Origin: Opitutales bacterium
GTDB taxonomy: Bacteria > Verrucomicrobiota > Verrucomicrobiia > Opitutales > UBA2987
Assembly (NCBI GenBank): GCA_965226885.1
Contig: CBDDEL010000012.1
Location: 1 to 64,000 of the forward strand
DNA length: 64,000 nt
Direction: 5' to 3'
Positions 44,734 through 64,000 of the stretch are shown here, in pieces. The notes under the pieces are model-generated. The model was given only the letters and a program-made list of their open reading frames with translations, ran no database searches and had not been told where the DNA came from. The first letter of the stretch is position 1, and the number at the start of each line of letters is the position of its first letter. Both the position numbers and the translations under genes were made by a program.

Positions 44734-46240
44734 CCCGGATATTTCGTAAAAAAAGTATCGTTGATATGCTTAACTGCTGATATACAGCAGGATAGATCAA
44801 TAATTAAAGCAATATCAGCGATGACAAAAGGTAAACAATTAAAGCTACAGTTGACAAGGGTAAAAGGCCGCCGTGTGCGGGTTGATTTCAAGGGCGGAGA
44901 GGTTACTTCGGATGCCGGACTGCTTTTGATCCGGGAAGTGGATCGGCAGTTGGGCTTGACCGAACGAGCGGCCCGACAGTTAGTGGACAAACGGCAGAAG
45001 GGCAAAGTACGCCATGAGGTCTTGGGGATGCTGCGGCAGCGCGTTTACGGGCTGGTGGCGGGCTATGAGGATTTGAACGACTTTGATACCCTGCGCCACG
45101 ATCCATTGTTGCAAACGGTAACGGGGCGCATTGAAACGTTGGCCAGCGCGCCGACTTTGTGTCGTTTTGAAAACGGGCAGGATCGGCGGGCGGCCTTTGC
45201 GGTAAACGAGCTGTTGGTCGAACAGTTCATGGGCTCTTTTGCCGAGGAACCCGAAGAGATCATCCTGGACTTTGACGCCACCGACAATCCGGTGCACGGG
45301 CTCCAGGAGGGACGTTTTTTCCACGGTTATTATGATCATTACTGTTTTCTGCCGCTATATGTTTTTTGCGGTGATCAGCTGCTGGTGGCCTACCTGCGGC
45401 CGAGCAAGATCGATGCCAGCAAGCATGCCGGGGCCATCCTCAAATTGCTGGTTAAACGGATTCGCCAAAGCTGGCCCCGTAAGCGGATTATTTGGCGCGC
45501 CGACAGTGGATTTTGTCGAGACCGGATACTCTCTTGGTGCGACCGCAACGAAGTTAGTTACATCGTGGGGATGGCTCGCAATGCACGCTTGCAGCAAGAC
45601 GCCCAGCAGTTGCAAAAGCAGGCCAAAGAATGGTTCGAACTAAGGGGTAAAAAACAACGGTTATTCCAGGACTTCGTCTATGCTGCCGATTCGTGGCGAT
45701 GGCTGCGGTTGGTCATCCATAAAGCCGAACACACCGCACAGGGGTCCAACCCGCGCTTCGTGGTGACGAACCTGCCGGGCGATCCCCAGGAGCTTTACGA
45801 CAAGGTATACTGTGGCCGCGGTGAAATGGAGAACCGAATCAAGGAACAGATGCAATTGTTCAGCGAGCGCACCAGCGCCCATCAATGGTGGGCCAATCAG
45901 TGGCGATTGCTCTTGTCGGCGCGGGCCCAATGCCACACCCTGCGGCTCAAATTAATCAAGATCGGAGCGGTCATCGTGCGCAACACCCGAACGATTCACT
46001 TTCACCTAAGTGAGAGTTATCCTTGGGCCAGTCTTTTCAACCATGCGGCCCGCCGATTGGTGCCAACCTAAAGGGTGCATTGGTGCTGCCCCCGGCACTA
46101 CCGAACCAATGGGGGAAAGGGGGCAGTGTCTCTACACCCTGAAAAACACCTAAAAATCAAGACGATCTGCTCAAAATACAAAGAAATCCATCTCCAATAG
46201 CAATAACGAGCCAAACTTTACCCTTCATGAAATATCCGGG
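44734..46240 (+). mobile_element. IS1380 variant B, both ends present, with a 60-bp in-frame internal deletion
   Basis: TTAG on both sides; transposase 44821-46071 lacks LAYTLMEAMRRLALKGTKWA, deletion between GGCGC microhomologies. Confidence 0.92.
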
Positions 46241-49825: not shown

Positions 49826-51043
49826 TTATCCTGAATTGCCCCTATTGCTGGAGGAGGCCTGGGCCGGGCGGACGGGCAGCCAGCGAATGAGCAGGTAACG
49901 GCCTCCGAGGTTGTTAAAATTCATCCGTACCCGCTCTTCTCCGGGTTCCACCTGCTGGACAGCCACCGGTTCATGGTTCCCGAAAAATCTCTCGGGAAGT
50001 CTGACAATATTCAAATTGCCGGCAGGTTTGTTTTGGCTTTCTTTTGGCTCAGGGCTATTATCCAAAACATCATCCAGATTGGGCAGGAAGTAAAACTGGA
50101 GAGTGCCCGGGCCCGATTCATAGAGAAGGGATAATTTGTTGACGGTGGCGTTTTGCTTCAGGTCCAAAACAAGGATGGATTGTTCATCTTCGGGTGAAAA
50201 CTCATAATAGGTCAAAGAGTCATCGTCGATCATGAGGTTGGCGTCGGTAAGCGACCCCGAATTGAGGTAGGCGATTTCAGTGCCCGAGTAGAGCGAGGCG
50301 TAATCGTAACTGACGGTTTCCGTAGTTGCGGAGATATCTAATTCCGCCTCCACCTCATTCACACTTTCCTGGGCGGCCATTTCTCTGCGCTGAAATTTGG
50401 TTTGGCTGATATTGGGTTCTCCAAAGAGCCCCAGGCTGGCAATTTCTCCAGATTTTTCGATTTCAAATTTCAGTTGGACAAATTGGGCTAGAATAATGGG
50501 AAAGGTGTAGTTGGTTCGCTGTTTGGGAGCAATTGAGATGTTTTCGCCGACCTCAGTCCAGCGTTGGCTATCAAGGGGTAGAAATGTGTCGGAGACAGAG
50601 ATATCCACCTTGCCGAGGGCGGAATAGCTCATCAGAAAGACCCGGTTGATGGGGTAGGGATTGACCAGATTGATGATCAGGGTGTGGGAGCCTTGGTTGA
50701 AGTTGTAAGCGAGGGTTTCGTCATCGCTCAAGAGGATTCCAACATCCGAACCTTCACTTGAATTGATGGAAATCTGTGCCTCTTGTCCCTTTTCATCAAT
50801 GTAGGTGATAGAAACATCCATGTGCCAGCGGGCCAGGTTCTTGGGCAGGGCGACCAGGTATTCCTCGCTGACTTGGGGAATTTGATGAAGCTCAAGCGAT
50901 TGGCCTGTGGCTGATGGCAGATACCCGGCCAGTAGTATCAGAACCGGAGAAATAATACGCAAAACGTCCTTTAATCCCATATTCGATACATTTCGGCATC
51001 TATGAAAAGAGCTTAAATACGGAAACTTCATTGAAACTTTCAT
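49826..51043 (-). CDS. Exported hypothetical protein (beta-rich, possibly discoidin-like domains)
   Basis: 405-aa ORF with hydrophobic leader; two similar LLSDDET / MIDDDSLT segments. Confidence 0.65.
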   Translation of the reverse strand: MKVSMKFPYLSSFHRCRNVSNMGLKDVLRIISPVLILLAGYLPSATGQSLELHQIPQVSEEYLVALPKNLARWHMDVSITYIDEKGQEAQISINSSEGSDVGILLSDDETLAYNFNQGSHTLIINLVNPYPINRVFLMSYSALGKVDISVSDTFLPLDSQRWTEVGENISIAPKQRTNYTFPIILAQFVQLKFEIEKSGEIASLGLFGEPNISQTKFQRREMAAQESVNEVEAELDISATTETVSYDYASLYSGTEIAYLNSGSLTDANLMIDDDSLTYYEFSPEDEQSILVLDLKQNATVNKLSLLYESGPGTLQFYFLPNLDDVLDNSPEPKESQNKPAGNLNIVRLPERFFGNHEPVAVQQVEPGEERVRMNFNNLGGRYLLIRWLPVRPAQASSSNRGNSG

Positions 51044-51379
51044 ACTGTGATTAATTGTGTTGAACCTATCTTAATCTACGGTCTTTGGCAAGAATTTATA
51101 AGAGGCTTATCATATGCCTTTTGCCAGTTCAAGGTTGCTGTAACTCTTTCTATAAGAATTAAATCTGGAATTTTTTAAAAATAAAAATTATTTTTAAAAA
51201 AAATATTAAAATCATCTTGAAACTGCTATTTTCCCCGAATTTCGACGATATTCAATTGACAGTTGAATCCACCTCAAGTTAACCTGAGACAGATTGGATA
51301 AATTATAGGGGGGACCTATCTTTATCCTGCTTACCTGTTCTTTATCCTGCTTACCTGTTTTATGCTATCATAATAAACA

Positions 51380-52645
51380 ATGGATAAAGAATATCAATTT
51401 TTACAGAGAAATACTTTATATCAGTTTTTGAAATCGAGCATTCCCGCTGCTATCCTCATTATAGTTGCCGTTGGATTGATTTTTCCCACTGGGGCTAAAG
51501 GAGCCCCACCGGCACCTCCCCCTCCTGTTGATTATATTTGGGATGGGGACACAAATGACTTATTTTCCACGGACGATAACTGGGATAATGTAGCGCCGGG
51601 AACAAGTAAAAATGTTGAGGATATTAATACAATTATCTTTAACCGAGCAGGCGATGTCGACCATAACGTTGAGCTCGACCAAGGCGCGGGAGGTTCCAAC
51701 ACACAGCCTATAGGATTAATTAAAATTGAAAGTACAAATAATCGAAGCTTTACCTTCGACGAGTCAACTGAAGGCAATTATGAATATCTCCTATATGGAG
51801 TTGATGTTGGTGGAACAATATTCGGATTTGATAAATGATAGCACCGGCGACCAAACATTCAATGTCAAAGTTGGCATGGAAAACTCCCAGACCTGGCAGT
51901 CAGCCGGCAATGTCACATTCGATGACACGGTATTTTCCGGCAGTAACGGCGAAAATCTGACTTTGAGTGGAAGTTCGGGGATTACCTTTACATTTGCTGA
52001 AGACGTTAACAATGCCTTGGAAAACACAACTGGGAATGAAGTAACCCTCATCCAGGATTTTGCAGGCACAGTTAATATGGATGGGGTGTTTTATCACACA
52101 TCCCTCGAACTCCAGCAAGGCACTTTTCTCTTGCGTGGAAACGATCTTGTCGAGGGCTCAAATTCGAACCCGACTAATCGAACCTGACTAATTTAATATT
52201 CAGCGACATTGGAGATGGCACATTTAGCACAGATGGGTATAACACAGATGGGTATAATGCGACTTTTAATGGGTCGATGACACTATCTGCCAATGGCACC
52301 ATTGACTTGGGATCCGGTGGCGGTACTGTGCTTAATTTTGAAGAGGGGGGAAGCCGCACTGGCGGCACCTTAACTATTGATAATTGGGATGGCGATATTT
52401 GGTCTGGAGGCGGAACGGATCAGATTTTTTTCGGGGAAGGCGAAATCCTTGACGATACATTTCTAAATAACGTTTACTGGAGCCATCTTCCTGCCTATCA
52501 ATTGGGTGCACGACAATTACCATCGGGAGAAATCCTTCCGCTCATTCCAGAACCTTCCACCTATGCCGGAATCGGATTTCTCATTGGATTCATATTTTGG
52601 CGAGAAGGTAAACGCAGAATGGCAGGAAATTCGGACCCCTCATAG
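51380..52645 (+). pseudogene. PEP-CTERM sorting-domain protein split by frameshifts
   Basis: Signal peptide; C-terminal IPEPSTYAGIGFLIGFIFWREGKRR; +1 indel near 51827 and 14-bp duplication at 52164-52191. Confidence 0.82.
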
Positions 52646-52768
52646 AATTCATTTCTAAATAATTTCTATACAAAGAGGTGTTAAATGCTCCAAGCCTCTC
52701 TTTTTTGGCTGGTATGGAAATCGGGGTATTTGACAGTCAAACTCTTGATGCCGTAGCGCTCAGGTGTT

Positions 52769-52904
52769 GGGAGAAGCAAGTAAATCATCTCGATTGACCT
52801 GCCCTCAATACCATGAAGGACCGATTGATTGGGTCTTTCAATGGGGGCCGTAGCCGAAGCATGGCGTTTCCATGGCCCCTCAAATCATAGGACTGAGGTT
52901 CTCT
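52769..52904 (+). ncRNA. Candidate structured small RNA (family unassigned)
   Basis: TTGACA at 52730 upstream; closing GAGAA/TTCTC pairing; hairpins TGAAGGACC/GGTCTTTCA and GGGGCC/GGCCCC; no ORF. Confidence 0.3.
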
Positions 52905-53095
52905 GTAGAATATTGTGCTGCTTGTAAACGCCGGGATGAAACCGGTACGGGGGTCGGGGTAAAACCGGTACGCTTGGAATAAGGTTTAGGTTAGTAATTG
53001 CAGGTACGTCAAGGTTTAGGGTTTGGGAGTTGGTTTTGGGGATTGGCTTGGGGTCGGTGAGGAGGCCGGAGGCCGACGAGCCGGGCCCAAGGCGT

Positions 53096-53863
53096 TTATT
53101 GTTTTGTGCCACGGCGACGGCGTCGAGCATCGCGCAAGCGGTAGCTTTGCCCGTTGGCTTCGAGGATATGCACCCGATGGGTGAGTCGGTCCAGCAGAGC
53201 TCCGGTGAGCCGTTCGGAACCGAGCACTTCGATCCAGTTCTCAAAGGGCAGGTTGGTGGTGACGATGAGACTGGTGCGCTCGTAAGCGCGGCTGACCACG
53301 TCGAAGAGCAGTTCGGAACCGGTCTTGGAAAAAGGGACGTAACCGAGTTCGTCGAGGATGAGTAGGTCGAGCCTTTCGAGTTGCTTCATGAAGCGCTGCA
53401 GGTCGTGGTTGTCGCGTTGCTCGAGCATATGGGTAACCAGGGCGGTGACCCCGAAGAAACGGATCCGCCGGCCCTGGGCACAGGCGGCAAAGCCCAGGGC
53501 GGTGGCCAGGTGCGTTTTACCGGTACCGGCGTTACCGAGGAGCAGCACGTTTTCGCGCTGGTCGACATACTCCCCGCGCATGAGCTCTCGGATGAGCGCT
53601 TCGTTGAGCGAGGGCTGCGCTTCAAAGGCGAAGCTCTCGAGGGTCTTGAGCACGGGGAAACGGGCGTTTTTGATCCGCCGCTGGGCGGCCCGCTGTTCGC
53701 GTTCAATGAGCTCCCGTTCGACCAGATGCAACAAAAAGGCGGCGTAATCGAGCCGGTCCCGGGAACAAGCCGCGGCCACCGCCGGCCATTCGCGCAGGAT
53801 GGTGGGCAACTTCAGTTTCTTGAGGTGATGGTGTAACAGCAGCTGGTTTTTTTCTTCCTTCAT
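53096..53863 (-). CDS. istB: IS21 helper ATPase IstB
   Basis: As copy 1. Confidence 0.93.
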   Translation of the reverse strand: MKEEKNQLLLHHHLKKLKLPTILREWPAVAAACSRDRLDYAAFLLHLVERELIEREQRAAQRRIKNARFPVLKTLESFAFEAQPSLNEALIRELMRGEYVDQRENVLLLGNAGTGKTHLATALGFAACAQGRRIRFFGVTALVTHMLEQRDNHDLQRFMKQLERLDLLILDELGYVPFSKTGSELLFDVVSRAYERTSLIVTTNLPFENWIEVLGSERLTGALLDRLTHRVHILEANGQSYRLRDARRRRRGTKQ

Positions 53864-55371
53864 AAAGCCCCTCCTGGAATCTTGAGCAGTTCGCTGTAGG
53901 CACCGAGGTCAGGGGCGGCCACACGGACGTGACGCAGGTGTGGATGGCCGTCCAGCCGGAAGGTTCTGCTCCCGTAGTCTTCCTGAGGATAGAGATACTG
54001 GGCGATGGCCTCACGAGTCAGTCCCCCCACCCGCAGGGCCGAGACGACGGCCTGCTGCAAGGCCGCCATGGGGTGTTTCTCCAACAGCCGCAGCACCCGG
54101 ATATACTCCCGGGTGCCTTCGCCCCCGCATTGGCTTTCGAGCCGGCGTCTGAGGACCTGCAGGCACTGCGGCAACTGCCAGCCCGAGAGTGGGCGGGCGA
54201 AGTCCAAAGCGCCCGGTTTTTTCTCCAGCAAAGCCAGGTAGTGCACCGGCTCGAAAGAGACTTGCTCTTTATCCCAAATGCGGCGGTGCCGGGCCACCTC
54301 TTGGCCCCCACAGAAGATCACCACCTGCCGACAGGACCCTTCCACCACCACCGGATGGTGGGCGCAGCGCACCGGCACCGAATAGTCGTTGCACTCGAAG
54401 CGCACCAGCGAGAGGCTGCTGACGCAGGTCGAGCGTTTGCGGCTCGCTTCAAAGGGTATGGGCGGCAACGCCAGCATGACGGCGCGCTCCTCGGCCAGCA
54501 GTTCCTTTTTCACCGCCCTTTTCCCGCGTAATTTACGCTCCATGTCCCGCTCACATGCCTCCAACAGCTTTGCGTTGAGTTCCTCCAGGTCCCGAACCTG
54601 CGGTACCGGTACCAGGAAGTTGGCCCGGGCATAACGCACGATCCCCTCGACCACGCCCTTCTCGTTGGGCCGGGCGGGCAGACAGAAGTGTTCCTCGAAC
54701 AGGTAATGGCTCTGTAGCTGCAGAAACCCGTCGGTCAGCTTGCGTTCACGCGAACCGATAATCTTACCCACCGCCACCTTCGAGTTGTCATAGCTGATGC
54801 GCCGGGGCACCGCCCCGAAAAACTCAAAAGCTCGCAGGTGCCCCTCCCAGAAGCTCTCCGTGCACTCCCGTTCGAACACCTGCACGAAAAAGGCATCGCT
54901 GTAGGGCAGGCTCATGGCAAAAAATGGCCGCCTACGCAATTGCCCCGCCTCCTTCACCAGGGCATGACCGAAGTCCACCTGTCCCTCCCCGGGGCGGTGC
55001 TCCAGCGGCACGAACACTTCCCGCCGCCTCGCTCGCAGCTCGGCCACCACCTCCTTGACCGCCGTGTAGCCCCCTTGGTAGCCCTTCTCCCGACCCAAAC
55101 GCTGGTAGATCCGTTTGGCCGTATGGCGCTGCTTCTTGGGCACGTTCCGGTCCGCTTTGAGCACCTCCTCGATCCAGCCCACATACGGATCGATCTTGCG
55201 CTCTCGCCTCTTCTTGCGCCGGTATCCCGGCGGCTGGGAATAGGCCAGGGCCAGCATCTTTCCCAGGGTCTCCCAGTGCAGTCCCTCTTCTCGCATTACA
55301 GAGCGCTTGCTCTACTTGTCCCGCAGCACTTTGTGCCGCACTCTTGTCCATTGCTTCATATCTCGATACAC
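53860..55371 (-). pseudogene. istA: IS21 transposase IstA with an early nonsense codon
   Basis: CAG in copy 1 is TAG here (55312-55314). Confidence 0.85.
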
Positions 55372-55453
55372 TCCTCCTTTCTAGGATAAGCGTACCGGTT
55401 TTAAAGCGCCCTCTTTACCGTACCGGTTTTTTCCCGGCGTTTACACTACCCGG

Positions 55454-55574
55454 ATTCGATCATCAAATAACCAAGAAAAGGATTGAAAAATCATAGTGAA
55501 AGCAGAAAATTGGATCGAAATATTGGAATGCAGCTATTTTCAACGATTATTAATGTTCATATGGGAAATCTCGG
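55454..55574 (+). repeat. Dispersed non-coding element, copy A (IS1380-like right end)
   Basis: 121 bp, colinear with 62263-62383; ends CATATGGGAAATCTCGG. Confidence 0.85.
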
Positions 55575-55674
55575 AATTTATCTGACTTTGGACCGACTAT
55601 TGCCTATCTGAACACTGATCAATTATATATCGGCATGGATAAAACTTTCAGGGAAACTAGGAAAGCCAGCTAAT

Positions 55675-57693
55675 ATGTGTGGGATTGTGGGATATACGGG
55701 TCATTCCCTAGATGAAAGGAAATTGCAAAGGGCAGTCGATTCCCTCCATCACCGGGGCCCTGACGGGAGCGGGATATACATCGATCCGCATCAGTGTGCG
55801 GGGTTGGGACACGCCCGTTTGTCGATCATCGACCTGGAAACCGGGGCTCAACCACTCTACGCCCAGAATGATGAATTGGTGCTGGTTTGCAATGGGGAGA
55901 TTTACGACTTCGAACGGATCAGACATGAACTCGAATTAATTGGTCACGTATTCTATACTAAAAGCGATTCGGAGGTAATCCTGCATCTCTATCGGGAGTA
56001 TGGAACAGAATTCGTCCACCACCTAAGGGGCGAATTTGCCTTTTTGCTGCTGGATAAACGCAAACGCGTATTCATAGCGGTTCGCGACCGTTTTGGCATT
56101 AAACCTTTATATTTTCACGAGAATGAAGGGAAATTTGTCTTTGCCTCGGAAGCCAAGGCTATTTTCGCAACAGGATGCCATAATCCTAAAATTGACGTAA
56201 TTGCCGTTAGAAACTTTCTCAGCGGGGTTATTCCGGACTCGATTTTTAAAGATATTGAGGTTGTTCCACCGGGATGCCTGATGAAGGTGGACCTCGATAG
56301 CCGGAAGCATGAGATTCACCAATACTGGGATTTGGATTTGCCGCTCGAATGCGAAATCAAAGATGGCAAGGAACTCGATCATCATGCGCAAACCGTCCGT
56401 GAAGCCCTCGATGAAGCGGTTCGTCTGCGTTTGCGTGCGGATGTCCCCGTTGGCATCTATCTGAGTGGAGGAATTGATTCAGCAATTGTGGCCGCATCGG
56501 CCGCCAAACAGCATCCCGGCCGGATTAAGGCATTTACCATATCCTTTCCCGGGGAGGAAAATTTTAATGAGTATCGATTGGCCAAAGATATGGCCAAAAA
56601 GATTGGGGCCGAGTTCCATTCGGTTACCTGCGATCACGAAACAATGCTCAAGAACACCGAGGATTGCTTATGGGTTTCCGAATTTCCTTTTCATAATTTT
56701 CACGGAGTTGGCAAATTTCTCTTGTCTCGTTTGGCACAGCAGCATGTCAAAGTGGTTTTGACCGGGGAAGGCTCCGACGAGGTATTTTTGGGGTATGTCT
56801 TTTTTCAACCCGGCAAAGGCGCCATAACGTGCCAGATGGAAAACCGTTTGAAGACGCTGCGCACTCCCAGTGGACCTCATATCAGTGCAATTATCGAGGC
56901 GATTGGCTTTCTGCCTTGGCAGGAGCATGCGGAATCCTTTACCAAGGGGCGGCAGAAGTTTATAAGGAACCTTTTCCATCCCGACCAACATTCGCGGATT
57001 TCCGATAATCACCCCCTGGAGTGGCTCAAGCGGCGTATAGAGCGAACCCAAACGGATGAACGGTCCCCGGTCAAAAAAATTCAATACTTCTGCATCAAAG
57101 CGATACTGGCTCCCTATATCCTGACAATTCTTGGCGATCGGCAGGAAATGGGACACTCCATAGAAGGGCGCACACCTTTTCTTGATCACCATCTCTTCGA
57201 TAAAGCCAGGAGAATTCCGGACCGTTTCAAGATACACAATGGGGTCGAGAAATATGTATTGCGAGAAGCGTTAAAAGACGAGATTACCGACGAAATATAC
57301 AAACGTGAAAAATGGCCCTTCTGCGCCCCACCCTTGTGGATAAAAAAGGGCATTTATTCAACACTCGATCAGATTTACGATCGTTATTTATCTAAAAAAG
57401 CCATCGCAAAAAGTGGTATTTTCAACTACCGCATGATTCGTCGCTGCCGCTGGCTAGGACAACTGATTTTCTTCGATTGCGCAATAAAACGGAAATTGAA
57501 CCAGATGTGTGTTTTCATTCTCACCGTTCAGATTCTGGACCAGCTTTACGTCCAAAATTTCGAGGAAAATCTGCAAAAACGACTGGCTGACAGGAAAGAG
57601 TCCGCCTACAAAACACCATCGGCTGCATCCAGTCCAAAGAAAAAGGATAAGCCACAGATCAATGATCCTCTATTGCAGAGCGAAAAGCTGTAG
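55675..57693 (+). CDS. asnB: Asparagine synthase (glutamine-hydrolyzing)-family amidotransferase
   Basis: MCGI Ntn start, HRGPD, NGEIY, RDRFGIKPL, LSGGIDS, TGEGSDE. Confidence 0.92.
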   Translation: MCGIVGYTGHSLDERKLQRAVDSLHHRGPDGSGIYIDPHQCAGLGHARLSIIDLETGAQPLYAQNDELVLVCNGEIYDFERIRHELELIGHVFYTKSDSEVILHLYREYGTEFVHHLRGEFAFLLLDKRKRVFIAVRDRFGIKPLYFHENEGKFVFASEAKAIFATGCHNPKIDVIAVRNFLSGVIPDSIFKDIEVVPPGCLMKVDLDSRKHEIHQYWDLDLPLECEIKDGKELDHHAQTVREALDEAVRLRLRADVPVGIYLSGGIDSAIVAASAAKQHPGRIKAFTISFPGEENFNEYRLAKDMAKKIGAEFHSVTCDHETMLKNTEDCLWVSEFPFHNFHGVGKFLLSRLAQQHVKVVLTGEGSDEVFLGYVFFQPGKGAITCQMENRLKTLRTPSGPHISAIIEAIGFLPWQEHAESFTKGRQKFIRNLFHPDQHSRISDNHPLEWLKRRIERTQTDERSPVKKIQYFCIKAILAPYILTILGDRQEMGHSIEGRTPFLDHHLFDKARRIPDRFKIHNGVEKYVLREALKDEITDEIYKREKWPFCAPPLWIKKGIYSTLDQIYDRYLSKKAIAKSGIFNYRMIRRCRWLGQLIFFDCAIKRKLNQMCVFILTVQILDQLYVQNFEENLQKRLADRKESAYKTPSAASSPKKKDKPQINDPLLQSEKL

Positions 57694-58007
57694 AACCTGT
57701 TTCACCTCTAATTTAATTTTCAGCGGAACTGCCGGGACGCAGAAGGTCGCCCATTCGATAGGCGTCCTTTCCCTTCGATGAATAGAAAAGAGCAAAATAT
57801 CCGCCCAAAACGAAGATGATGTGACCGCCGAAAACACGACCATTGCCAGTGTGAGTCTCTATGGGATGGGGAATGAACCCTTGGTTAGGGTATTTCCATT
57901 GCTGTGATGACAAATTTCCGGACGGGTCAGTAGGGCCAAAGCGATTACTTCTTGGCTGAAATAGCTGGATTGACAATTGTCAAAACGAATTGTCAAAACG
58001 TATTGAA

Positions 58008-58255
58008 ATCAGATAATTGGATCTTAATATTGTTGCCTACCTATTTTCAACGATTATGAATGTTCATATGGGAAATCTCGGTTTGTGGTGAGCTTGGTTG
58101 ATAAAACGCTTGAAGATGGCGGCTGTAGGCTATCAGATAATTGGATCTTAATATTGTTGCCTACCTATTTTCAACGATTATGAATGTTCATATGGGAAAT
58201 CTCGGTTTGTGGTGAGCTTGGTTGATAAAACGCTTGAAGATGGCGGCTGTAGGCT
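58008..58255 (+). repeat. 124-bp perfect tandem duplication containing element copies B1 (ends 58081) and B2 (ends 58205)
   Basis: 58008-58131 repeated at 58132-58255. Confidence 0.92.
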
Positions 58256-58324
58256 TATAGTACCCAATCGGCAGATGCGTCAGCGCTGCCTGTAATGAAG
58301 TTAGCTTAACTAAAGGAGATTCTG

Positions 58325-59545
58325 ATGAAAAAAATAACCAATGCAAAAATCGTGTGCGTACTATATGACGATCCGGTTGATGGCTATCCCACAAATTACG
58401 CGCGCAGCGATATTCCTATGCTGGATACGTACCCAGACGGACAAACTTTGCCATCTCCACAGACGATTGATCATACTCCCGGCGCACTTCTCGGCAGCGT
58501 TTCTGGCGAGTTAGGTCTGCGTAAGTTCCTGGAAGAGCGTGGCCATACACTTGTCGTGACCTCCGATAAAGATGGCCAGGAATCTGTGTTTGAAAGAGAG
58601 CTTGTTGATGCAGATATAGTGATCTCTCAACCCTTTTGGCCTGCGTATCTAACTGCAGAGCGGATAGCAAAGGCCAAAAATCTTCAGTTGGCAATCACGG
58701 CTGGTATTGGATCAGATCACGTTGATTTACAGGCGGCGATAGACCATAACATTACCGTTTGCGAAATTACCTATAGTAATAGTATCAGTGTGGCGGAGCA
58801 TGTCTGCATGATGATATTGTCTCTGGTTCGCAACTATATCCCGTCGTACAACTGGGTAATCAAAGGAGGATGGAACATAGCCGATTGTGTTTCGAGGTCG
58901 TATGATATTGAAGGGATGAACGTTGGGACCGTCGCGGCAGGTCGTATTGGAAGCGCGGTACTCAAAAGAATGAAACCTTTTGATGTGAAACTTCATTATA
59001 CCGACAGGCACCGACTTTCAGTTGGAATTGAAAAGGAACTCAACGTGACTTTCCATGAGAGCGTTGAATCCATGATCAAGGTGTGTGATGTGGTGACAAT
59101 CAACTGCCCACTTCATCCTGAGACGGAGCATATGTTTGATGAGAAAATGATTAGCAAAATGAAGCGTGGCGCCTACCTGGTTAATACAGCTCGAGGAAAG
59201 ATTTGTGACCGCGACGCTGTCGCAAAAGCCTTGGAGAGTGGTCATTTGGCCGGCTATGCGGGCGATGTCTGGTTTCCGCAACCGGCGCCTAATGATCATC
59301 CGTGGAGAACCATGCCGCACCATGCAATGACACCACACACTTCAGGCACTTCTTTGTCGGCACAGTCAAGATATGCCGCGGGTAGCAGAGAGATATTGGA
59401 ATGCTGGTTCGAAGGTGAGCCGATTCGGAATGAATATCTCATAGTTGATGGAGGGAAGCTTGCGGGTGCAGGGGCACACTCCTATAGTGAGGGCAACGTT
59501 ACCGGCGGTTCAAAGGAGGCAGAGAAATTCGAGACGGTCGACTAA
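58325..59545 (+). CDS. fdh: NAD-dependent (metal-independent) formate dehydrogenase
   Basis: VLYDDP..GYP, GSVSGELGLR, SQPFWPAY, AGIGSDH, AAGRIG, GDVWFPQP, MTPHTSG. Confidence 0.96.
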   Translation: MKKITNAKIVCVLYDDPVDGYPTNYARSDIPMLDTYPDGQTLPSPQTIDHTPGALLGSVSGELGLRKFLEERGHTLVVTSDKDGQESVFERELVDADIVISQPFWPAYLTAERIAKAKNLQLAITAGIGSDHVDLQAAIDHNITVCEITYSNSISVAEHVCMMILSLVRNYIPSYNWVIKGGWNIADCVSRSYDIEGMNVGTVAAGRIGSAVLKRMKPFDVKLHYTDRHRLSVGIEKELNVTFHESVESMIKVCDVVTINCPLHPETEHMFDEKMISKMKRGAYLVNTARGKICDRDAVAKALESGHLAGYAGDVWFPQPAPNDHPWRTMPHHAMTPHTSGTSLSAQSRYAAGSREILECWFEGEPIRNEYLIVDGGKLAGAGAHSYSEGNVTGGSKEAEKFETVD

Positions 59546-59571
59546 GTGAATTCATTGCTATCAAGCGAAGC

Positions 59572-59668
59572 TGTAAACGCCGGGATGCAACCGGCACAGT
59601 AAACGGGTCGCTTTAAAACCGGTAAGCTTCGTCTTCAAAAGAGGAGTATACCGAGATATGAAGCAATG
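59572..59668 (+). mobile_element. Remnant left end of a diverged IS21-family element
   Basis: TGTAAACGCCGGGA...CGCTTTAAAACCGGTA...GAGGAGT...CGAGATATGAAGCAATG aligns with the istA-proximal end of the resident IS21, with many substitutions. Confidence 0.75.
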
Positions 59669-59707
59669 AGTATAAAGAGGTTTCCTGAATTGTCAAATTC
59701 AGCCAGG

Positions 59708-59784
59708 GAAAGCAGAAAATTGGATCGAAATATTAGAAAGTAGCTATTTTCAACGATTATGAATGTTCATATGGGAAATCTCGG
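59708..59784 (+). repeat. Dispersed non-coding element, copy C
   Basis: GAAAGCAGAAAATTGGATCGAAATATT...CATATGGGAAATCTCGG. Confidence 0.85.
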
Positions 59785-59851
59785 ATTGAATATTCGGTGA
59801 ACGCCAATGTCTAAGCCACTTCCAAAAGATATTATTGCTAGGTTTTTTAAA

Positions 59852-60021
59852 GAACTTCCGAAGGCCTCGACACCGCCCTCAGAGGCAAAGGTTGGCGATT
59901 CTACGATTTCCCGGACGTCGGCGCTACTCGGCTCATGTGCGGCTGGGACACGACGGAAGACGATGTCAACAAGTTTGTGGCCGATGCCGTAGAGTTGGCC
60001 GGAAAGGAGAAAAGATCATGA
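59852..60021 (+). pseudogene. C-terminal fragment resembling low-specificity threonine aldolase
   Basis: ALRGKGWRFYDF...RLMCGWDTTEDDVNKFV; stop overlaps the next start (ATGA). Confidence 0.6.
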
Positions 60022-61487
60022 AAACCTGTCAACACTTCATCAATGGCGAGTATCAGAGCAGCGCCGAGACATTTGAAACCGTCAACCCGGCGACCGGCGA
60101 AGTAATCGCCACGGCGGCACGGGGAGCAAAAGCGGAGATTGAATTGGCCGTGGATGTCGCCCGAGAGACGTTTATGACGACGTCATGGGCGGACATGGAT
60201 GGTCGGCTGCGCGGGGAGTTGCTGCGAAATGTGGCCGAGGCGATACGCCGGCATGCCGAGGAAATCGTCCCTATGGAAGTCGCCGATGCGGGCAAGACCA
60301 TCGGCGATGCCCGTGCGGAGGTGGAGATCGCGGCCCAGGTCTGGGACTATTATGCGGACCTGACACAGTGCGCCATCGGCACGGTTAATTCCGTGCCCGC
60401 GCCGGATCAGTTCGACTATACCATTCGTCAACCGATGGGCGTAATCGGAATCATCATTCCCTGGAATTTCCCATTTGTGCTCACGGCGCTGAAGTTGGCG
60501 CCCGCCCTGGCGGCGGGCAACACGGCTGTGTTGAAGCCGGCCGAAGACACGCCCGTGACAGCCAGTATGCTGGGCGCGCTGTTGAATGAAGCCGGCGTTC
60601 CCGGCGGAGTTGTGAACATCGTTTTTGGGTTCGGCGAAGAGGCCGGCGCGGCGCTTGCCGCCAACGAGAAGGTGGAAAAACTGGTCTTCACCGGCTCAAC
60701 GGAAGTCGGTTCGCAGGTGATGCAGGCGGCGGCGAAAAATATTACTGATGTCACGTTGGAGTTGGGCGGCAAGAGTGCCAACATCATTTTCGCCGACGCG
60801 GACCGTGAGCAGGCATTGATCAGTGCGGCATTCGGTTGCCTCCTCCACAGCGGGCAGTGCTGCTGCGCGGGAACGCGGTTGTTAATCGAAAATAAGATTT
60901 ACGACTCGTTCGTGAATGAGCTCAGCGAGCGCTTCGAGCGTGTTCGTGTCGGTGATCCCGCCGATGAAAAGACCCACCTCGGTCCCATCATCAATGCCAA
61001 CCAGATGGACAGGATCGAACATTACGTCAACGTCGGGAAAGAGGAGGGAGCGACCCTCATCACGGGCGGCGCCCGAGCCGCGGGCGGTGTGCTCGACAAT
61101 GGTTTCTTCTACCAACCCACCCTGTTCGGTAACGCCAACAATGATATGCAGATCGCGCGCGATGAGATCTTCGGTCCGGTCCTGCCCTGCATGCCGTTTG
61201 ACGACATCGATCAGGCCATCGCCACGGCCAATGAATCCACCTACGGCCTCGCCGCCGGGCTCTGCACGCGCGATCTGGTGAAGGCACATTATGCGGCGAA
61301 GCGGCTTCAGGCAGGTACGGTGTGGATCAACACCTTTAACGGCCTCGCACTCAACGCGCCTTTTCTCGGTTGGAAACGGAGCGGGATCGGCGTCGAGCGG
61401 GGTGTCGAGGGTCTGCACGATCACATGCGGTTGAAGCATGTGCGCATCGACATGTCGCAGAAACCACTGCCCGTTTTTGGGGATTGA
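60018..61487 (+). CDS. Aldehyde dehydrogenase family protein
   Basis: IPWNFP, KPAE, FTGS, LELGGKS, GQCC, EIFGPV; RBS GGAG before ATG 60018. Confidence 0.93.
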   Translation: MKTCQHFINGEYQSSAETFETVNPATGEVIATAARGAKAEIELAVDVARETFMTTSWADMDGRLRGELLRNVAEAIRRHAEEIVPMEVADAGKTIGDARAEVEIAAQVWDYYADLTQCAIGTVNSVPAPDQFDYTIRQPMGVIGIIIPWNFPFVLTALKLAPALAAGNTAVLKPAEDTPVTASMLGALLNEAGVPGGVVNIVFGFGEEAGAALAANEKVEKLVFTGSTEVGSQVMQAAAKNITDVTLELGGKSANIIFADADREQALISAAFGCLLHSGQCCCAGTRLLIENKIYDSFVNELSERFERVRVGDPADEKTHLGPIINANQMDRIEHYVNVGKEEGATLITGGARAAGGVLDNGFFYQPTLFGNANNDMQIARDEIFGPVLPCMPFDDIDQAIATANESTYGLAAGLCTRDLVKAHYAAKRLQAGTVWINTFNGLALNAPFLGWKRSGIGVERGVEGLHDHMRLKHVRIDMSQKPLPVFGD

Positions 61488-61587
61488 TAGGTTGAGGGAA
61501 TGAGAAGGGTTAAAGGTTCAGGTTGGAATGGTGCTGATTTTCAGAGCCATTCCGATTTTACCCTATTTTCGGTCCGAGTCTTTACAT

Positions 61588-61935
61588 TTACCAGTCGACC
61601 CACAGTCTGGTCCACCGGATGCCAGATGGGGGCCCTCCTCTTTGCACCAGTGCGTCGCCAGGAAGGTGCCGTCTTGCAAGCGCACGGCGGTGGGGAAGCC
61701 GAACATGAAACTATCCAACTCCTCAACGCCCGACTCCAGGCCTTGCGGCCGTTCGCGCCGGGCCCCGCCGTCATACATCAGTCCTTCATAGCGCAGGTCC
61801 CAGGCCGTGTCCGTGAAGCTCACCAGGTTCATGACAATGCCTTGATCACCGTAGCGACGGTTGTAGAGTACCAGGAGCCGGTCCCCACCCAGAGGAATCG
61901 GAGTCATGGTTTGGCCCCATATGCCGGTGGATTGG
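61588..61935 (-). pseudogene. C-terminal fragment of a sialidase/BNR-like beta-propeller protein
   Basis: STGIWGQTMTPIPLGGDRLLVLYNRR...FGFPTAVRLQDGTFLATHW, then frameshifted GIRWTRLWVDW*. Confidence 0.55.
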
Positions 61936-62260
61936 GATCAGAGTTTCATTGGCCCGATCCACGAAAGATTCCACGGCGGACGACATTTTTTTCATGGCCG
62001 CCTCGTAACCTTCCGCTGCCTGCTCCATCGCACGGCCGAACGTCTCCTGATTGATCGACCCCAGATCGAGCAGTTCATTCAGCTTTTCATGTTCAAGATT
62101 GAGCCTTTCAAGGGGTGTACGCGTTTGCTCAATAATAGCCTTGGCCACTCCCTGCAACTCATTGCGCCGAGTCATTAACTGCAAACCCTTCGCGGTTTCT
62201 GTGTTCTCCGAAATGATGGCAGCGACCGCGTCCTGGTTAATTGACTTTATTAAATACTGC
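61936..62260 (-). pseudogene. Internal fragment resembling a phage tail tape-measure protein
   Basis: QTRTPLERLNLEHEKLNELLDLGSINQETFGRA helical repeat motif; no plausible native start or end. Confidence 0.5.
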
Positions 62261-62262
62261 CA

Positions 62263-62383
62263 ATTTGATCATCAAATAACGAAGGATAAGATTGAAAAAT
62301 CACATTGAAAGCAGAAAATTGGATCGAAATATTAGAAAGTGGCTATTTTCAACGATTATGAATGTTCATATGGGAGATCTCGG
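62263..62383 (+). repeat. Dispersed non-coding element, copy D
   Basis: 121 bp, colinear with copy A; ends CATATGGGAGATCTCGG. Confidence 0.85.
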
Positions 62384-62503
62384 TTTATACGTCAACGAAT
62401 ACTGCCCCTACGAGGTATCTTGCATATCAGGTGCAACCTCAAGAGCAGGTTCTTACTCCTTTTTTTCTAGCCGGCGCGGGCAAAGCCCGACAGTCTTCCG
62501 GAT

Positions 62504-64000
62504 ATGAAACAGGAAATCAATCGTCGTAAGTTCTTGGGAACATCGATCGCGGCCGGCGCGGGCCTGACGCTTGGGGCTTTCGCTCCGCGGAGCAGGGGTC
62601 AGCATAGTAAAACGTATCAGACTTCTTCACCCAAGCTGGGATACATCTCCCCTCGTGGAAGCCGGCGGATCATTTATGTCAGCGATCCCTCCAGTATCGC
62701 CTCAGGTTATTTACCCGATCCAGCCTCTGAGGCAGATTTGCGCCGATGGGTGGATGAACTGGCGCACGCACAGGTCGATACTTTTATCCAGGAGGCTTAC
62801 ACCCAGGGGTGGACCACCTATTGGCGAACGGATGGTTTTGAGTATGACGCCCGCCCGCAGCATCGCCGCTTTCTTCCTCTATTGGATGAGGGCATACAAC
62901 CGCTGGAGGTGCTTCTGGAGCAGGCTCATGAGCGAGGCATGGAATTTCTGGTGGGTATCCGAATCAACGATAATCATGGCCATATCTCGGTAAAACAAGG
63001 CGTGGGTTTCGGAGCCTCCTTTCTGGCAAATAATCCACAGTGGTTATTAAAGGAGGCGCCGCCGGGGCCCTATTATCAGCTAAGTTCGCCCATGGACTTT
63101 AGTTTTCCCGAGGTGCGGGACTACCTTTTCTCCGTCACGGAGGCACTGGTCAGCCGTTTTCACGTTGATGGCCTGGAATTATGCTTCCGGGACCATCGTT
63201 ACTTTCCGCCCGACAAAGGGCGGGAGGGACAGCCTCTCATGACCGAACTGGTTAGGCGGATCCGTCAAATGCTGGACCAGAAGGGCCGAAGTAGAAACAA
63301 GAAGTTGCAACTTGGAGCGCGTGTTTACCAGACGGTGGAAGAATGCCAGATTCAGGGACTGGATGTCCCGGGTTGGATTTCCGAAGGCCTGCTGAATTAT
63401 CTTGCCCCGGGTGATGTCATGTACTCTGATTTAAACGCCCCTTATGAGCAATTCACTCAACTGGCCCGCGCCTCGGATTGCCTGGTCTATCCGGCGCTTC
63501 TACCCTGGAGCAGCCTAAGGATGAGGCGCCGCCTTGGGGGAATGCCTATCTCGCTTGAGCAACAGCGCGCAATCGCTCAGAACTTCTACGGGGCCGGAGC
63601 CGACGGGGTCTCATTCTATAACCACTTCGTCACCTTGAAATGGGCGCCGTTCTATCCGATGATGCTGCACGATTTCGTTGAACTGAAAAGCCCGCCGCAA
63701 GTCTCTCGAGGAAATCGCCATTACGTCTTTGAACCCATCTGGGCGGGCTGTAAGGGCTTCGGCGGCGAGGGACGCACCTCAACCGGCGCCCTGAAGGCAG
63801 ATCGGATCGTCCTGAGGCGCGCCGACTCGGGGGCCGGGGGAAGCTATCGATTTCGCATCTGCGAGGATTTTGAGCAGGTGCGGAGAGCGGCGCTGCTATT
63901 TCGCGGCCATCCCATGACGTTAAAGGACAAGCTGGAGATCCGGCTCAACGGAACTCCGATCTCTTCCGCAGCGCAAAAGCGACGAAACGACGAACAGCGG
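62504..64000 (+). CDS. TAT-exported glycoside-hydrolase-like protein (GHL10/YddW-like TIM barrel), runs off the window
   Basis: Read manually, not in the ORF track: MKQEINRRKFL TAT motif; AHERGMEFLVGIRINDNH; MDFSFPEVRDY...VDGLELCF. Confidence 0.75.
   Translation, partial: MKQEINRRKFLGTSIAAGAGLTLGAFAPRSRGQHSKTYQTSSPKLGYISPRGSRRIIYVSDPSSIASGYLPDPASEADLRRWVDELAHAQVDTFIQEAYTQGWTTYWRTDGFEYDARPQHRRFLPLLDEGIQPLEVLLEQAHERGMEFLVGIRINDNHGHISVKQGVGFGASFLANNPQWLLKEAPPGPYYQLSSPMDFSFPEVRDYLFSVTEALVSRFHVDGLELCFRDHRYFPPDKGREGQPLMTELVRRIRQMLDQKGRSRNKKLQLGARVYQTVEECQIQGLDVPGWISEGLLNYLAPGDVMYSDLNAPYEQFTQLARASDCLVYPALLPWSSLRMRRRLGGMPISLEQQRAIAQNFYGAGADGVSFYNHFVTLKWAPFYPMMLHDFVELKSPPQVSRGNRHYVFEPIWAGCKGFGGEGRTSTGALKADRIVLRRADSGAGGSYRFRICEDFEQVRRAALLFRGHPMTLKDKLEIRLNGTPISSAAQKRRNDEQR

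What the first reader, a model, noticed from the sequence alone, without database searches (positions are those of the whole stretch)
55454..64000. Array of unrelated cargo genes separated by a repeated, polarised ~120-bp terminal element: candidate gene-capture platform
Seen: five copies of a non-coding motif, ending at 55574, 58081, 58205, 59784 and 62383, all on the + strand. They share CTATTTTCAACGATTAT(G/T)AATGTTCATATGGG(A/G)AATCTCGG-type cores. Similarity stops abruptly after TCTCGG, which is followed each time by different A/T-rich bases. Each independent copy lies ~100-230 bp upstream of a different co-oriented gene (asnB-like, NAD-fdh, aldehyde dehydrogenase module, TAT glycoside hydrolase) with visibly different base composition. 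No cognate transposase or integrase is in the array. Known: IS1380-family elements such as ISEcp1 mobilise DNA downstream of their right end using surrogate ends, and carry an outward promoter near IRR. The motif end resembles the IRR of the IS1380 in this window (TTCATGAAATATCCGGG) but is not the same element. Inference: repeated insertion of IS1380-like transposition units just inside a previous unit's right end would build this end-cargo-end-cargo stack. The result would be an integron-like accretion system run by a DDE transposase acting in trans.
Basis: partly seen in the sequence, partly recalled or inferred. Interest (0 to 1): 0.85.

Follow-up and report, generated by a model that had tools for sequence, protein, structure and literature searches.

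The report
Transposon right-ends stacked with captured genes
The repeated ~120-bp motif is the right-hand end of an IS1380-family jumping gene, left in front of genes that such elements carry along with them, so the "array" is a pile-up of transposition units of a known type (as for ISEcp1) in an uncultured marine Opitutales bacterium.

Summary
Five + strand copies end at the stated coordinates with a sharp 3' edge at TCTCGG. Two of them are one perfect 124-bp tandem duplication, so four are independent.

The motif is the right end (RE) of a 1,700-bp IS1380-family insertion sequence, here called ISx. Its 445-aa transposase is intact in a related genome (G032) and broken in every copy in this genome. 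The genome holds about 51 REs but only 11-13 ISx bodies. In 32 of 38 independent loci the RE faces a co-oriented ORF.

The cargo is not syntenic:
- asnB has left its genus-native locus.
- The formate dehydrogenase (FDH) gene is 100% and 96% identical in two other genomes, again next to REs.
- The ALDH and GHL10 genes have no orthologue in the genus.

In congeneric genome G004, a 6.3-kb unit runs from an ISx left end to the window's own RE4-type solo end. It is flanked by a 6-bp target duplication, so solo REs work as transposition ends.

Best reading: stacked ISEcp1/ISPme1-type transposition units whose IS bodies were lost. Promoter activity, the order of nesting and any integron-like targeting are not shown. 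Earlier notes of this scan on this genome concern other features.

The parts
52923..55445 (-). Full IS21-family element (IstA 478 aa, IstB 255 aa) that cuts off the IS body upstream of RE1. It has no target duplication, so this junction is a rearrangement and not a simple insertion.
   Evidence: inverted repeats I2/I3; PF01695 IstB; Mu-transposase C-terminal domain; about 80 copies in the genome; left flank unrelated to ISx.
55453..55574 (+). RE1: the last ~122 bp of ISx (ISx positions 1579-1700), ending in TCTCGG.
   Evidence: 92% identical to ISx.
55575..57815 (+). asnB module: about 100 nt of native upstream sequence, the asparagine synthase CDS (55675-57693) and about 120 nt of native 3' flank.
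   Evidence: (TIGR01536). The flank is 105/113 identical to the emptied native locus at C17:205.6 kb. One search shows a contig joint 55574>57816 in run X5.
57816..57982 (+). 167-nt spacer, probably the remnant of an older cargo. It directly follows an RE in a contig of run X5.
   Evidence: joint table; unique in the genome.
57983..58081 (+). RE2: about 95-120 bp of the ISx right end (ISx positions ~1608-1700).
58132..58205 (+). RE3: a copy of RE2 made by the perfect 124-bp tandem duplication 58008-58131 / 58132-58255.
   Evidence: family D2, 100% identical.
58309..59571 (+). FDH module: a 16-nt leader with AAGGAG and the NAD-dependent formate dehydrogenase CDS (58325-59545). The left breakpoint at 58309 recurs in three different contexts.
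   Evidence: NF005750, 712.8 bits; joints 59784>58309 in X3 and 58083>58309 in X5.
59572..59668 (+). Solo IS21 end fragment between FDH and RE4. G004 has it at the same place.
   Evidence: (I1, D6, D7).
59689..59784 (+). RE4: about 96 bp of the ISx right end. In G004 the same FDH-IS21 fragment-RE4 segment forms the right terminus of a 6.3-kb transposition unit.
59858..61936 (+). ALDH module. It holds a 55-codon 3' remnant of an upstream gene whose TGA overlaps the ALDH ATG, the aldehyde dehydrogenase CDS (60018-61487), and part of a convergent - strand frame. GC is about 59%. A 73-nt spacer (59785-57) precedes it.
   Evidence: PF00171; 97% identical block inside a 21.8-kb contig of run X8.
62247..62383 (+). 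RE5: the last 137 bp of ISx (positions 1564-1700).
62407..64000 (+). GHL10 module (CDS from 62504; the gene and module run on to C12:64227, beyond the window). It starts 23 nt after RE5. A second copy lies at C16:630055-631886.
   Evidence: (PF02638).

Best explanation
The motif is the right end (RE) of a 1.7-kb IS1380-family insertion sequence, ISx. The RE comprises the terminal inverted repeat plus about 80-120 bp of A/T-rich subterminal DNA. That DNA holds a promoter-like TTGAAA-17 nt-AATATT that faces outward.

Like ISEcp1 and ISPme1, ISx moves together with DNA on its 3' side as a transposition unit. The window's array is a stack of such units: RE1-asnB, RE2/3-FDH, RE4-ALDH and RE5-GHL10. 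Their IS bodies have been lost.

Shown:
- What the RE is.
- That the cargo is foreign or relocated.
- That REs face co-oriented genes.
- That REs are clustered.
- That a solo RE can serve as the distal transposition end of a unit driven by an upstream full ISx.

Inferred:
- That the IS bodies were lost partly because later units landed in the A/T-rich end of an earlier ISx, and partly through deletions made by other ISs such as the IS21 at RE1.
- That the retained ends transcribe the cargo.
- That the stack grew by nested insertion.

In this genome ISx looks non-autonomous, so the array is most likely a fossil or is movable only in trans.
For: Identity of the element:
- Full-length copies of 1,700 bp carry IRL CCCATATTTCCCATTTCATC. 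The reverse complement of the RE matches it at 18 of 25 positions.
- The 445-aa ORF in G032 scores 365 bits on NF033539 'IS1380 family transposase' (cut-off 180) and 434 bits on PF13701.

Excess of right ends:
- Coverage along ISx is 11-13 copies for the body, 16-17 for the left end and 47 for the last 50 bp.

Orientation:
- In 32 of 38 independent loci with a non-repeated downstream flank, the RE faces a co-oriented ORF (binomial p = 2.4e-5).
- Seven of these have an ATG 0-19 nt after the end.

Cargo is not native as a block:
- asnB orthologues (81-88% aa) sit in another context in 3 of 4 congeners. The DNA that flanks asnB in G004 and G001 lies about 125 bp apart on C17 of this genome, with no asnB between. 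The array copy carries 113 nt of that locus's 3' flank at 93% identity.
- FDH is 100% aa identical in G004 and 96% in G032, which belongs to another family. The next best hit is 33%. In G032 an RE lies 4 nt from its ATG.
- ALDH and GHL10 have best hits of 46% and 32% in the 5 genomes searched.
- At 3 of 4 other RE loci, the DNA just downstream of the RE has no DNA match in 4 congeners.

Transposition unit:
- In G004:C21, the stretch from IRL at 6519 to RE4 at 204 (6,316 bp; ISx, an enolase-like gene, FDH, RE4) interrupts an older ISx between positions 84 and 79. CTTATA is duplicated on both sides.

Population variants:
- Contigs of other runs join an RE directly to 57816 (the asnB module is absent) and directly to 58309.

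Literature (passages read in PMC9330008; PMC6061673):
- IS1380-family ISEcp1 and ISPme1 mobilise 3'-adjacent DNA and carry strong outward promoters. For ISEcp1 this is TTGAAA-18N-TACAAT.
- A ~200-bp ISEcp1 remnant retained as a promoter has been described.
Against: - Only one unit with a clean target duplication was found. In this genome, 0 of 10 IRL/RE pairs on the same strand within 60 kb have matching 5-6-mers. No further match was seen by eye among 12 IRL and 25 RE flanks of G004 and G032.
- No unit in the window can be tested for a target duplication, because no ISx left end remains there.
- Spacers of 103, 73 and 23 nt of unknown origin lie between RE and the FDH, ALDH and GHL10 modules.
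- The second GHL10 copy (C16, 99.1% identical) has no RE beside it.
- All ISx transposase genes in this genome are broken. Only 3 of 23 HSPs span residues 1-445, and each of these has 1-2 stops.
- Promoter activity rests on a 9-of-12 consensus match and on orientation only. Copies of 58 nt or less lack those hexamers.
- The variant joints come from assembled contigs laid at 90% likeness, with short sides of 24-61 letters. The tool warns that such joints can come from repeats or from other organisms.
- In G032, three ISx copies carry shuffled combinations of left and right flanks. Homologous recombination therefore also moves flanks.
Confidence: 0.7

Rival explanations
1. Independent insertions plus decay. 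ISx copies inserted one by one upstream of genes already resident at this locus. Their bodies later decayed or were deleted, and the ends were kept as useful promoters. On this view the array is a chance cluster in an IS graveyard and no cargo was moved.
For: The genome is extremely IS-rich, with repeat families of about 330, 213, 165 and 80 copies and at least 242 copies of another IS1380-family element. An IS21 truncates RE1. RE-flanking bases are A/T-rich, as expected for insertion into promoter regions. Remnant-promoter fixation is known for ISEcp1 (PMC9330008, passage read).
Against: The four cargo genes are not neighbours in any relative searched. asnB has left its native locus and brought 113 nt of native flank with it. 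FDH travels with REs between families. ALDH and GHL10 have no orthologue in the genus. Four same-strand REs within 7 kb occurred in 0 of 5000 random placements. The G004 unit shows cargo and RE moving together.
Confidence: 0.1
2. Homologous recombination between dispersed REs or ISx copies. The ~100-bp ends act as portable homology, possibly as one-sided anchors for foreign DNA, with an illegitimate join at the other side. Recombination, not transposition, would then be the main process that puts new DNA after an RE.
For: In G032, three ISx copies carry the flank pairs (L1,R1), (L2,R2) and (L2,R1). RE4 has the same upstream DNA in G000 and G004 but different DNA downstream. The asnB module's right junction shows a 3-nt ATG overlap between the native sequence and the recipient sequence.
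Against: A single crossover swaps flanks but cannot insert a module between an RE and its old flank. The new DNA appears to start exactly at the RE edge, and the old flank resumes without loss, in three cases: asnB, and the FDH contexts in G000 and G004. Illegitimate joins would not do this repeatedly. The G004 unit has a target duplication, which recombination does not make.
Confidence: 0.08
3. Dedicated accretion at the RE edge. The outer boundary of a resident RE is itself the preferred insertion point for incoming units (end-targeting, as IS30 or IS26 target their own ends). REs would then act as reusable docking sites and expression sites, which is.
For: RE|57816 versus RE|asnB module|57816. 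RE|58309 (runs X3, X5) versus RE+103 nt|58309 (G000) versus RE+1.68 kb|58309 (G004). The end of the asnB module coincides with the end of native-locus homology to within 3 nt. ISx units do insert into ISx sequence (G004).
Against: No recombinase or intact transposase sits nearby. The joints rest on short contig overlaps. No tandem RE-IRL junction, the expected intermediate, was seen. The one proven insertion (G004) went into an ISx left end, not next to an RE. That IS30 and IS26 target their own ends is recalled, not checked here.
Confidence: 0.12

Closest known systems
ISEcp1 transposition units (IS1380 family; blaCTX-M, blaCMY-2 and others in Enterobacterales)
   Same: The transposase family is the same (NF033539). 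The IS sits 5' of co-oriented cargo. The unit comprises the IS plus 3' DNA and is flanked by a short A/T-rich target duplication (5-bp duplications in PMC6061673). An outward TTGAAA-type -35 lies near the right end (PMC9330008). Truncated right-end remnants are kept in front of cargo.
   Different: The transposase is only 23% identical to that of ISEcp1. The cargo is metabolic genes in an uncultured marine Opitutales. There are about 51 right ends per genome against 11-13 IS bodies. Units are stacked end-cargo-end-cargo. The proven unit ends at a genuine solo RE, not at a surrogate IRR-like sequence. The duplication is 6 bp in that one case.
ISPme1 'transposable modules' (TMos) of Paracoccus (IS1380 family)
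   Same: It is an environmental IS1380 member that mobilises 3'-adjacent segments of variable length and carries a strong outward promoter (PMC9330008, passage read).
   Different: I saw no report there of arrays of solo right ends, or of solo ends reused as termini. The primary paper was not read.
IS26 pseudo-compound arrays / translocatable units
   Same: Cargo segments are separated by repeated copies of one IS-derived sequence, all in direct orientation.
   Different: The separators here are ~100-bp ends without a transposase gene. The family is different (IS6 versus IS1380). What I say of the IS26 mechanism is recalled, not checked.
Integron (intI / attI / attC cassettes)
   Same: Each gene of a co-oriented string is preceded by a conserved element. 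One module shows presence/absence variation exactly at that element's edge.
   Different: There is no tyrosine recombinase and no attC-like folded site. Modules include gene fragments and flanking DNA rather than single ORF cassettes. Each gene has its own putative promoter end.

Membership tests
IS1380 family insertion sequence | DDE transposase of the IS1380 type | tested here: met
   L059:5091-6428 (445 aa) scores 365 bits on NF033539 (cut-off 180) and 434 bits on PF13701 DDE_Tnp_1_4. The copies in G000 are 90-92% identical to it but interrupted.
IS1380 family insertion sequence | Single-ORF element of about 1.7 kb with terminal inverted repeats that begin with CC (size and IR features recalled from ISfinder, which was not consulted) | tested here: met
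   The element is 1,700 bp. The IRL begins CCCATATTTCCC and the reverse complement of the IRR begins CCGAGATTTCCC; they match at 18 of 25 positions. The left boundary is defined by 14 copies with different flanks.
IS1380 family insertion sequence | Short target-site duplication (4-5 bp recalled; 5 bp for ISEcp1 in PMC6061673) | tested here: inconclusive
   One unit in G004 has CTTATA on both sides. In G000, 0 of 10 IRL/RE pairs show a match. No further match was seen by eye among the flanks of G004 and G032.
ISEcp1/ISPme1-type transposition unit (TMo) | The IS and its 3'-adjacent DNA move as one unit, bounded by the IRL and a distal right end and flanked by a target duplication | tested here: met
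   The 6,316-bp unit at G004:C21 6519..204 interrupts an older ISx at positions 79-84. It was shown in a congener, not in the window itself. The distal end is a genuine RE.
ISEcp1/ISPme1-type transposition unit (TMo) | Outward promoter in the right end that drives the cargo | tested here: inconclusive
   TTGAAA-17-AATATT matches 9 of 12 consensus positions. 32 of 38 loci are co-oriented. The RNA run was held only as contigs, which cannot show transcript starts.
ISEcp1/ISPme1-type transposition unit (TMo) | Use of surrogate (imperfect) IRR-like sequences as the distal end | not tested
   The right edges of the modules (57815, 61936, 64227) were not scored against the IRR. By eye there is no clear resemblance at 57815.
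Integron | IntI tyrosine recombinase with attI, and cassettes that end in a folded attC | tested here: not met
   No integrase domain was found among the ORFs scanned in 49.8-64 kb. The RE has no significant fold (z = -0.49) and there is no Rfam match. Modules carry gene fragments.
MITE (non-autonomous element with both ends) | Both terminal inverted repeats flank a short internal sequence | tested here: not met
   The window copies have no IRL. Three internally deleted ISx derivatives with both ends exist elsewhere: C1:28439-28658, C15:103314-103605 and C16:781803-782198.

The most novel reading that the evidence does not exclude
Solo IS1380-family right ends may be more than debris. On this reading they form a reusable platform. 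Each ~100-bp end (i) still serves as a legitimate transposition terminus for any upstream ISx, so RE-cargo-RE stacks move as nested units. Each end (ii) also attracts new units to its own outer edge. Cargo would then accrete gene by gene behind a portable promoter. That would be a transposase-driven functional analogue of an integron, operating on metabolic genes across Opitutales families.
Probability: 0.15. Interest if true: 0.7.

Novelty: new variant of a known kind. Interest (0 to 1): 0.5.

Why it matters
ISEcp1-type capture is known almost only from antibiotic-resistance genes in clinical Enterobacterales. Here a distant IS1380 relative appears to have done the same with ordinary metabolic genes in an uncultured marine Verrucomicrobium: asparagine synthase, formate dehydrogenase, an aldehyde dehydrogenase and a glycoside-hydrolase-like gene.

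It has left about 50 right ends, most of them facing genes. At least one cargo gene (FDH) is shared at 96-100% identity between families.

This gives a natural system for three questions:
- How often does IS1380-type read-through transposition rewire expression and move genes outside the clinic?
- Do leftover ends remain active as termini?
- How do stacks of units form?

For annotation, it also shows that a conserved 'upstream motif' can be an IS end.

Tried and rejected
- **RNA element.** Rfam gave 0 matches at E<=1 over 52000-64000. The RE4 region folds no better than shuffled sequence (z = -0.49).
- **Target duplications in this genome.** 0 of 10 same-strand IRL/RE pairs within 60 kb match. 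No second clean duplication was seen in the G004/G032 flanks.
- **Intact ISx transposase in G000.** None found.
- **Four near-identical full ISx copies as evidence of ISx activity.** Rejected. They are passengers inside a 7.4-kb element bounded by TAGAGGCTGTCCC inverted repeats.
- **Decayed transposase genes upstream of solo ends.** Among the 23 HSPs of at least 60% identity, none lies beside a solo RE. This comes from reading coordinates, not from a formal test.
- **Selective conservation of promoter hexamers.** Conservation is uniform over the last ~90 nt in 30 distinct copies, so nothing can be concluded.
- **Transcription start mapping.** All runs, including the RNA run X20, are held as contigs. 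X20 covers parts of FDH and ALDH but shows no starts. Uncovered parts are not evidence.
- **Family of the 55-codon remnant before ALDH and of the - strand frames at 61563-61907 and 57713-57976.** No Pfam family reached its cut-off.
- **Second array at G004:C23.** Four short REs lie within 12 kb, but two are followed by other ISs and two by ORFs with no Pfam hit. This adds little.
- **Boundaries of the abundant IS1380-family element by megablast.** Blurred by nesting. They were settled instead from its IR strings.
- **A review I wanted (PMC6148190).** Not held.
- **ISfinder.** Could not be consulted.

Full report
**Observation**

In a five-way alignment the shared block ends exactly at TCTCGG and the following bases differ. 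One correction applies. Copies 2 and 3 are the two halves of a perfect 124-bp tandem duplication (58008-58131 / 58132-58255, 100% identical), so four copies are independent.

Each copy lies 100-243 nt upstream of a co-oriented ORF:
- an asparagine synthase (TIGR01536);
- an NAD-dependent formate dehydrogenase (FDH; NF005750, 713 bits);
- an aldehyde dehydrogenase (ALDH; PF00171);
- a GHL10-type glycoside-hydrolase-like protein.

GC is about 45-49% in asnB and FDH and about 55-60% in the ALDH block and GHL10. The stretch 55454-64000 holds no ISx transposase and no integrase. An IS21 (52923-55445; IstA/IstB) abuts copy 1, and a 97-nt solo IS21 end lies just before copy 4.

**What the motif is**

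The window's genome (5.48 Mb, 17 contigs) gives 55 blastn matches to the 121-bp copy. Of these, 51 reach its 3' end, while their 5' ends vary.

In several places the similarity runs on upstream for 1.6 kb. That defines a 1,700-bp element, here called ISx. It has:
- a left end CCCATATTTCCCATTTCATC, fixed by 14 copies with different left flanks;
- a right end whose reverse complement matches the left end at 18 of 25 positions;
- one long ORF.

In related genome G032 the ORF is intact (445 aa, two identical copies). It scores 365 bits on NCBIfam 'IS1380 family transposase' (cut-off 180) and 434 bits on PF13701. It is 23% identical to the ISEcp1 transposase; the best plasmid match is 61%.

It matches no Rfam family and does not fold better than shuffled sequence.

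That element has at least 242 copies in the genome and is ~31% identical at the protein level.

**Genome-wide pattern**

Coverage along ISx is 11-13 copies for the body, 16-17 for the left end, 38 for positions 1601-1650 and 47 for the last 50 bp. Right ends outnumber bodies about fourfold, and many solo ends start near position 1600-1610.

No ISx copy in this genome has an open transposase frame. Of 23 HSPs at 60% identity or more, only three span residues 1-445, and each of those has 1-2 stops. The rest are split by other ISs or truncated. Four near-identical full copies are passengers inside a 7.4-kb element bounded by TAGAGGCTGTCCC inverted repeats, so they do not show ISx activity.

I merged duplicated flanks and dropped 6 of the 44 flank groups, those whose downstream flank is itself a multi-copy repeat. 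Among the remaining loci, 32 of 38 REs face a co-oriented ORF of at least 90 aa (p = 2.4e-5). In seven of them an ATG lies 0-19 nt beyond the end.

REs are clustered. Twenty of 50 have a neighbour within 10 kb (P = 0.0012). A run of four on one strand within 7 kb was never reached in 5000 random placements.

The RE occurs in all 4 other genomes of the genus and in 3 of 36 other genomes of the order that were searched, one of them (G032) with 17 matches. Exact matches to its last 24 nt in the species-representative collection fall in 10 stretches. Eight are in two MAG records titled Opitutales bacterium. That agrees with the label in earlier notes of this scan.

**The cargo is not native as a block**

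*asnB.* Orthologues of 81-88% aa identity exist in 3 of 4 congeners; it was not found in G003, which is 81% complete. In G004 and G001 those orthologues are flanked by DNA whose counterparts in this genome lie at C17:204288-205574 and C17:205699-207042. These two blocks are only about 125 bp apart with no asnB between them. asnB is single-copy here. The array copy carries 113 nt of that locus's 3' flank at 93% identity (105/113), and homology stops at 57815-57818. asnB therefore reached the array as a ~2.2-kb piece of a genus-type locus. The 7% divergence suggests it came from a related strain and was not a fresh internal move.

*FDH.* It is 100% aa identical in G004 and 96% in G032, which belongs to another family. 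The next best hit is 33%. In G032 a 133-nt solo RE ends 4 nt before its ATG. In G004 and here the shared DNA starts at 58309, 16 nt before the ATG.

*ALDH and GHL10.* They have no orthologue in the five genomes searched (best 46% and 32%). The ALDH block 59858-61936 lies at 97% identity inside a 21.8-kb contig of a seawater run, with other DNA on both sides. It begins with a 55-codon 3' remnant of an upstream gene whose stop codon overlaps the ALDH start.

*Other loci.* At 3 of 4 other RE loci tested, the DNA just downstream of the RE has no DNA-level match in four congeners, while more distant or upstream DNA does. The fourth locus has only 65-70% matches.

**A transposition unit caught in a relative**

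In G004:C21 a full ISx (91% identical) is followed by a small ORF and an enolase-like gene. After them come the same FDH (99.7% nt), a later IS insertion, the same IS21 end fragment and the same RE4-type solo end as in the window.

The DNA to the left of this ISx's left end is positions 1-84 of an older ISx. The DNA to the right of RE4 continues that older ISx from position 79. CTTATA is therefore present on both sides.

This 6,316-bp stretch is one transposition unit with a 6-bp target duplication, and its distal terminus is a genuine solo RE. It shows that ISx moves 3' cargo, that solo REs remain usable ends, and that ISx units land inside ISx sequence. In the window, RE4 has the same upstream DNA but different DNA downstream (73 nt, then the ALDH block). 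That is what the same kind of unit would give if it had inserted at another target.

**Variants in other samples**

Contigs of three DNA runs and one RNA run were laid on 50000-64000. Error-free contigs confirm the window's RE1-asnB, asnB-57816-RE2 and RE4-ALDH junctions.

Other contigs join an RE directly to 57816, with the asnB module 55575-57815 absent (run X5, depth 4.3, side 36). Others join an RE directly to 58309 (X3, side 61; X5, side 28). The FDH gene has depth 100-120 in X3 and X5 against 2-6 for its neighbours, and shows 38 differences. A more abundant organism there therefore carries a variant of it.

These joints rest on short overlaps in assembled contigs at 90% likeness and need long reads. 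If real, new DNA has appeared exactly between an RE and its former flank. The asnB module's right edge coincides with the end of native-locus homology to within 3 nt.

**Mechanism**

The best-supported reading (0.7) is a stack of ISEcp1/ISPme1-type units. Passages in PMC9330008 describe both elements as IS1380 members that mobilise 3'-adjacent DNA and carry outward promoters. For ISEcp1 the promoter is TTGAAA-18N-TACAAT. The same passages describe a ~200-bp ISEcp1 remnant fixed as a promoter. PMC6061673 describes units with 5-bp A/T-rich duplications.

The RE carries TTGAAA-17-AATATT about 50 nt from its end.

Loss of the IS bodies is inferred. It could come from insertion of later units into the A/T-rich end of an earlier ISx, which would explain truncated REs preceded by the previous cargo. 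It could also come from deletions made by other ISs. The IS21 at RE1 has no target duplication and an unrelated left flank.

Points against or still open:
- Only one clean duplication was found.
- Spacers of 23-103 nt lie between RE and three of the modules.
- A 99.1% identical second copy of the GHL10 module has no RE beside it, and its edges hug the ORF.
- Flank pairs are shuffled among three ISx copies in G032, which shows that homologous recombination also acts.
- There is no direct evidence of transcription.

**Comparison and novelty**

This works like ISEcp1 transposition units and ISPme1 transposable modules, and ISx passes the tests for IS1380 membership. It is not an integron: there is no integrase or attC, and the modules carry gene fragments.

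What differs from the described cases:
- the host and the cargo;
- the number of right ends per genome;
- the end-cargo-end-cargo stacking;
- a unit that terminates at a genuine solo end.

My two literature searches listed clinical ISEcp1 contexts and reviews. I did not see such arrays described, but the searches were narrow and the primary ISPme1 paper was not read. I rate this a new variant of a known kind, interest 0.5.

The bolder reading is that RE edges are preferred docking points, giving an integron-like accretion. The evidence does not exclude it, and I put it at about 0.15.

Noticed in passing
window 58008-58255: A perfect 124-bp tandem duplication covers the last 74 nt of the RE plus 50 nt of flank. 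An 11-bp tandem duplicate (CAGGTGCAACC) distinguishes the two GHL10 copies and a contig of run X3 at 62427. Earlier notes of this scan report many shorter tandem duplications in this genome.
   Followed up: partly
G000 C17:205574-205699: The genus-native asnB locus is empty. The blocks that flank asnB in G004 and G001 lie about 125 bp apart here, and the only asnB is the array copy.
   Followed up: yes
window 62407-64000 (to C12:64227) and G000 C16:630055-631886: The GHL10 gene is duplicated as a 1.83-kb piece at 99.1% identity. The piece starts 97 nt before the ATG and ends 1-2 nt before the stop codon, so each copy uses a different stop. The C16 copy has no RE beside it. The mechanism is unexplained.
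   Followed up: partly
G000 C10:127655-135050, C11:161818-169213, C9 and C16 (four copies): A 7.4-kb element bounded by TAGAGGCTGTCCC... inverted repeats carries a defective ISx (TGG>TAG in the transposase) plus 5.6 kb of cargo that includes an ~840-aa secreted-protein ORF. It is present in 4 copies at 99.4-99.9% identity.
   Followed up: partly
whole genome G000; window 44734-46240 and others: The IS load is extreme. Repeat families of about 330, 213, 165, 145, 80 (IS21) and 49 copies flank the REs. A second IS1380-family element (~1.5 kb, IRs CCCGGATATTTC...) gives at least 242 near-full-length tblastn hits.
   Followed up: partly
window 58340-59463 in runs X3 and X5: FDH is covered at depth 100-120 with 38 differences, while neighbouring genes are at depth 2-6. 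A much more abundant organism in those samples therefore carries a ~96.6% identical FDH.
   Followed up: no
L067 (3.1-kb contig) and L071: A full-length ISx (92.7% identical) sits on a 3.1-kb contig of a MAG record titled Thermoplasmatota archaeon. A ~26-nt RE tail sits on a contig of a record titled candidate division WOR-3. This is probably mis-binning, but cross-phylum transfer is not excluded.
   Followed up: partly
G032:C1:1-14000 (L059) and G032:C2:3974-5658: Two intact ISx copies lie 7.3 kb apart, each preceded by a 99.8% identical 3.2-kb segment. Different genes follow each copy: a GFO/IDH/MocA oxidoreductase at +22 nt and an SSF symporter at +38 nt. A third copy combines the left flank of one with the right flank of the other.
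   Followed up: partly
G000 C1:28439-28658, C15:103314-103605, C16:781803-782198: Three internally deleted ISx derivatives (about 220-400 bp) keep both ends and so are MITE-like.
   Followed up: no
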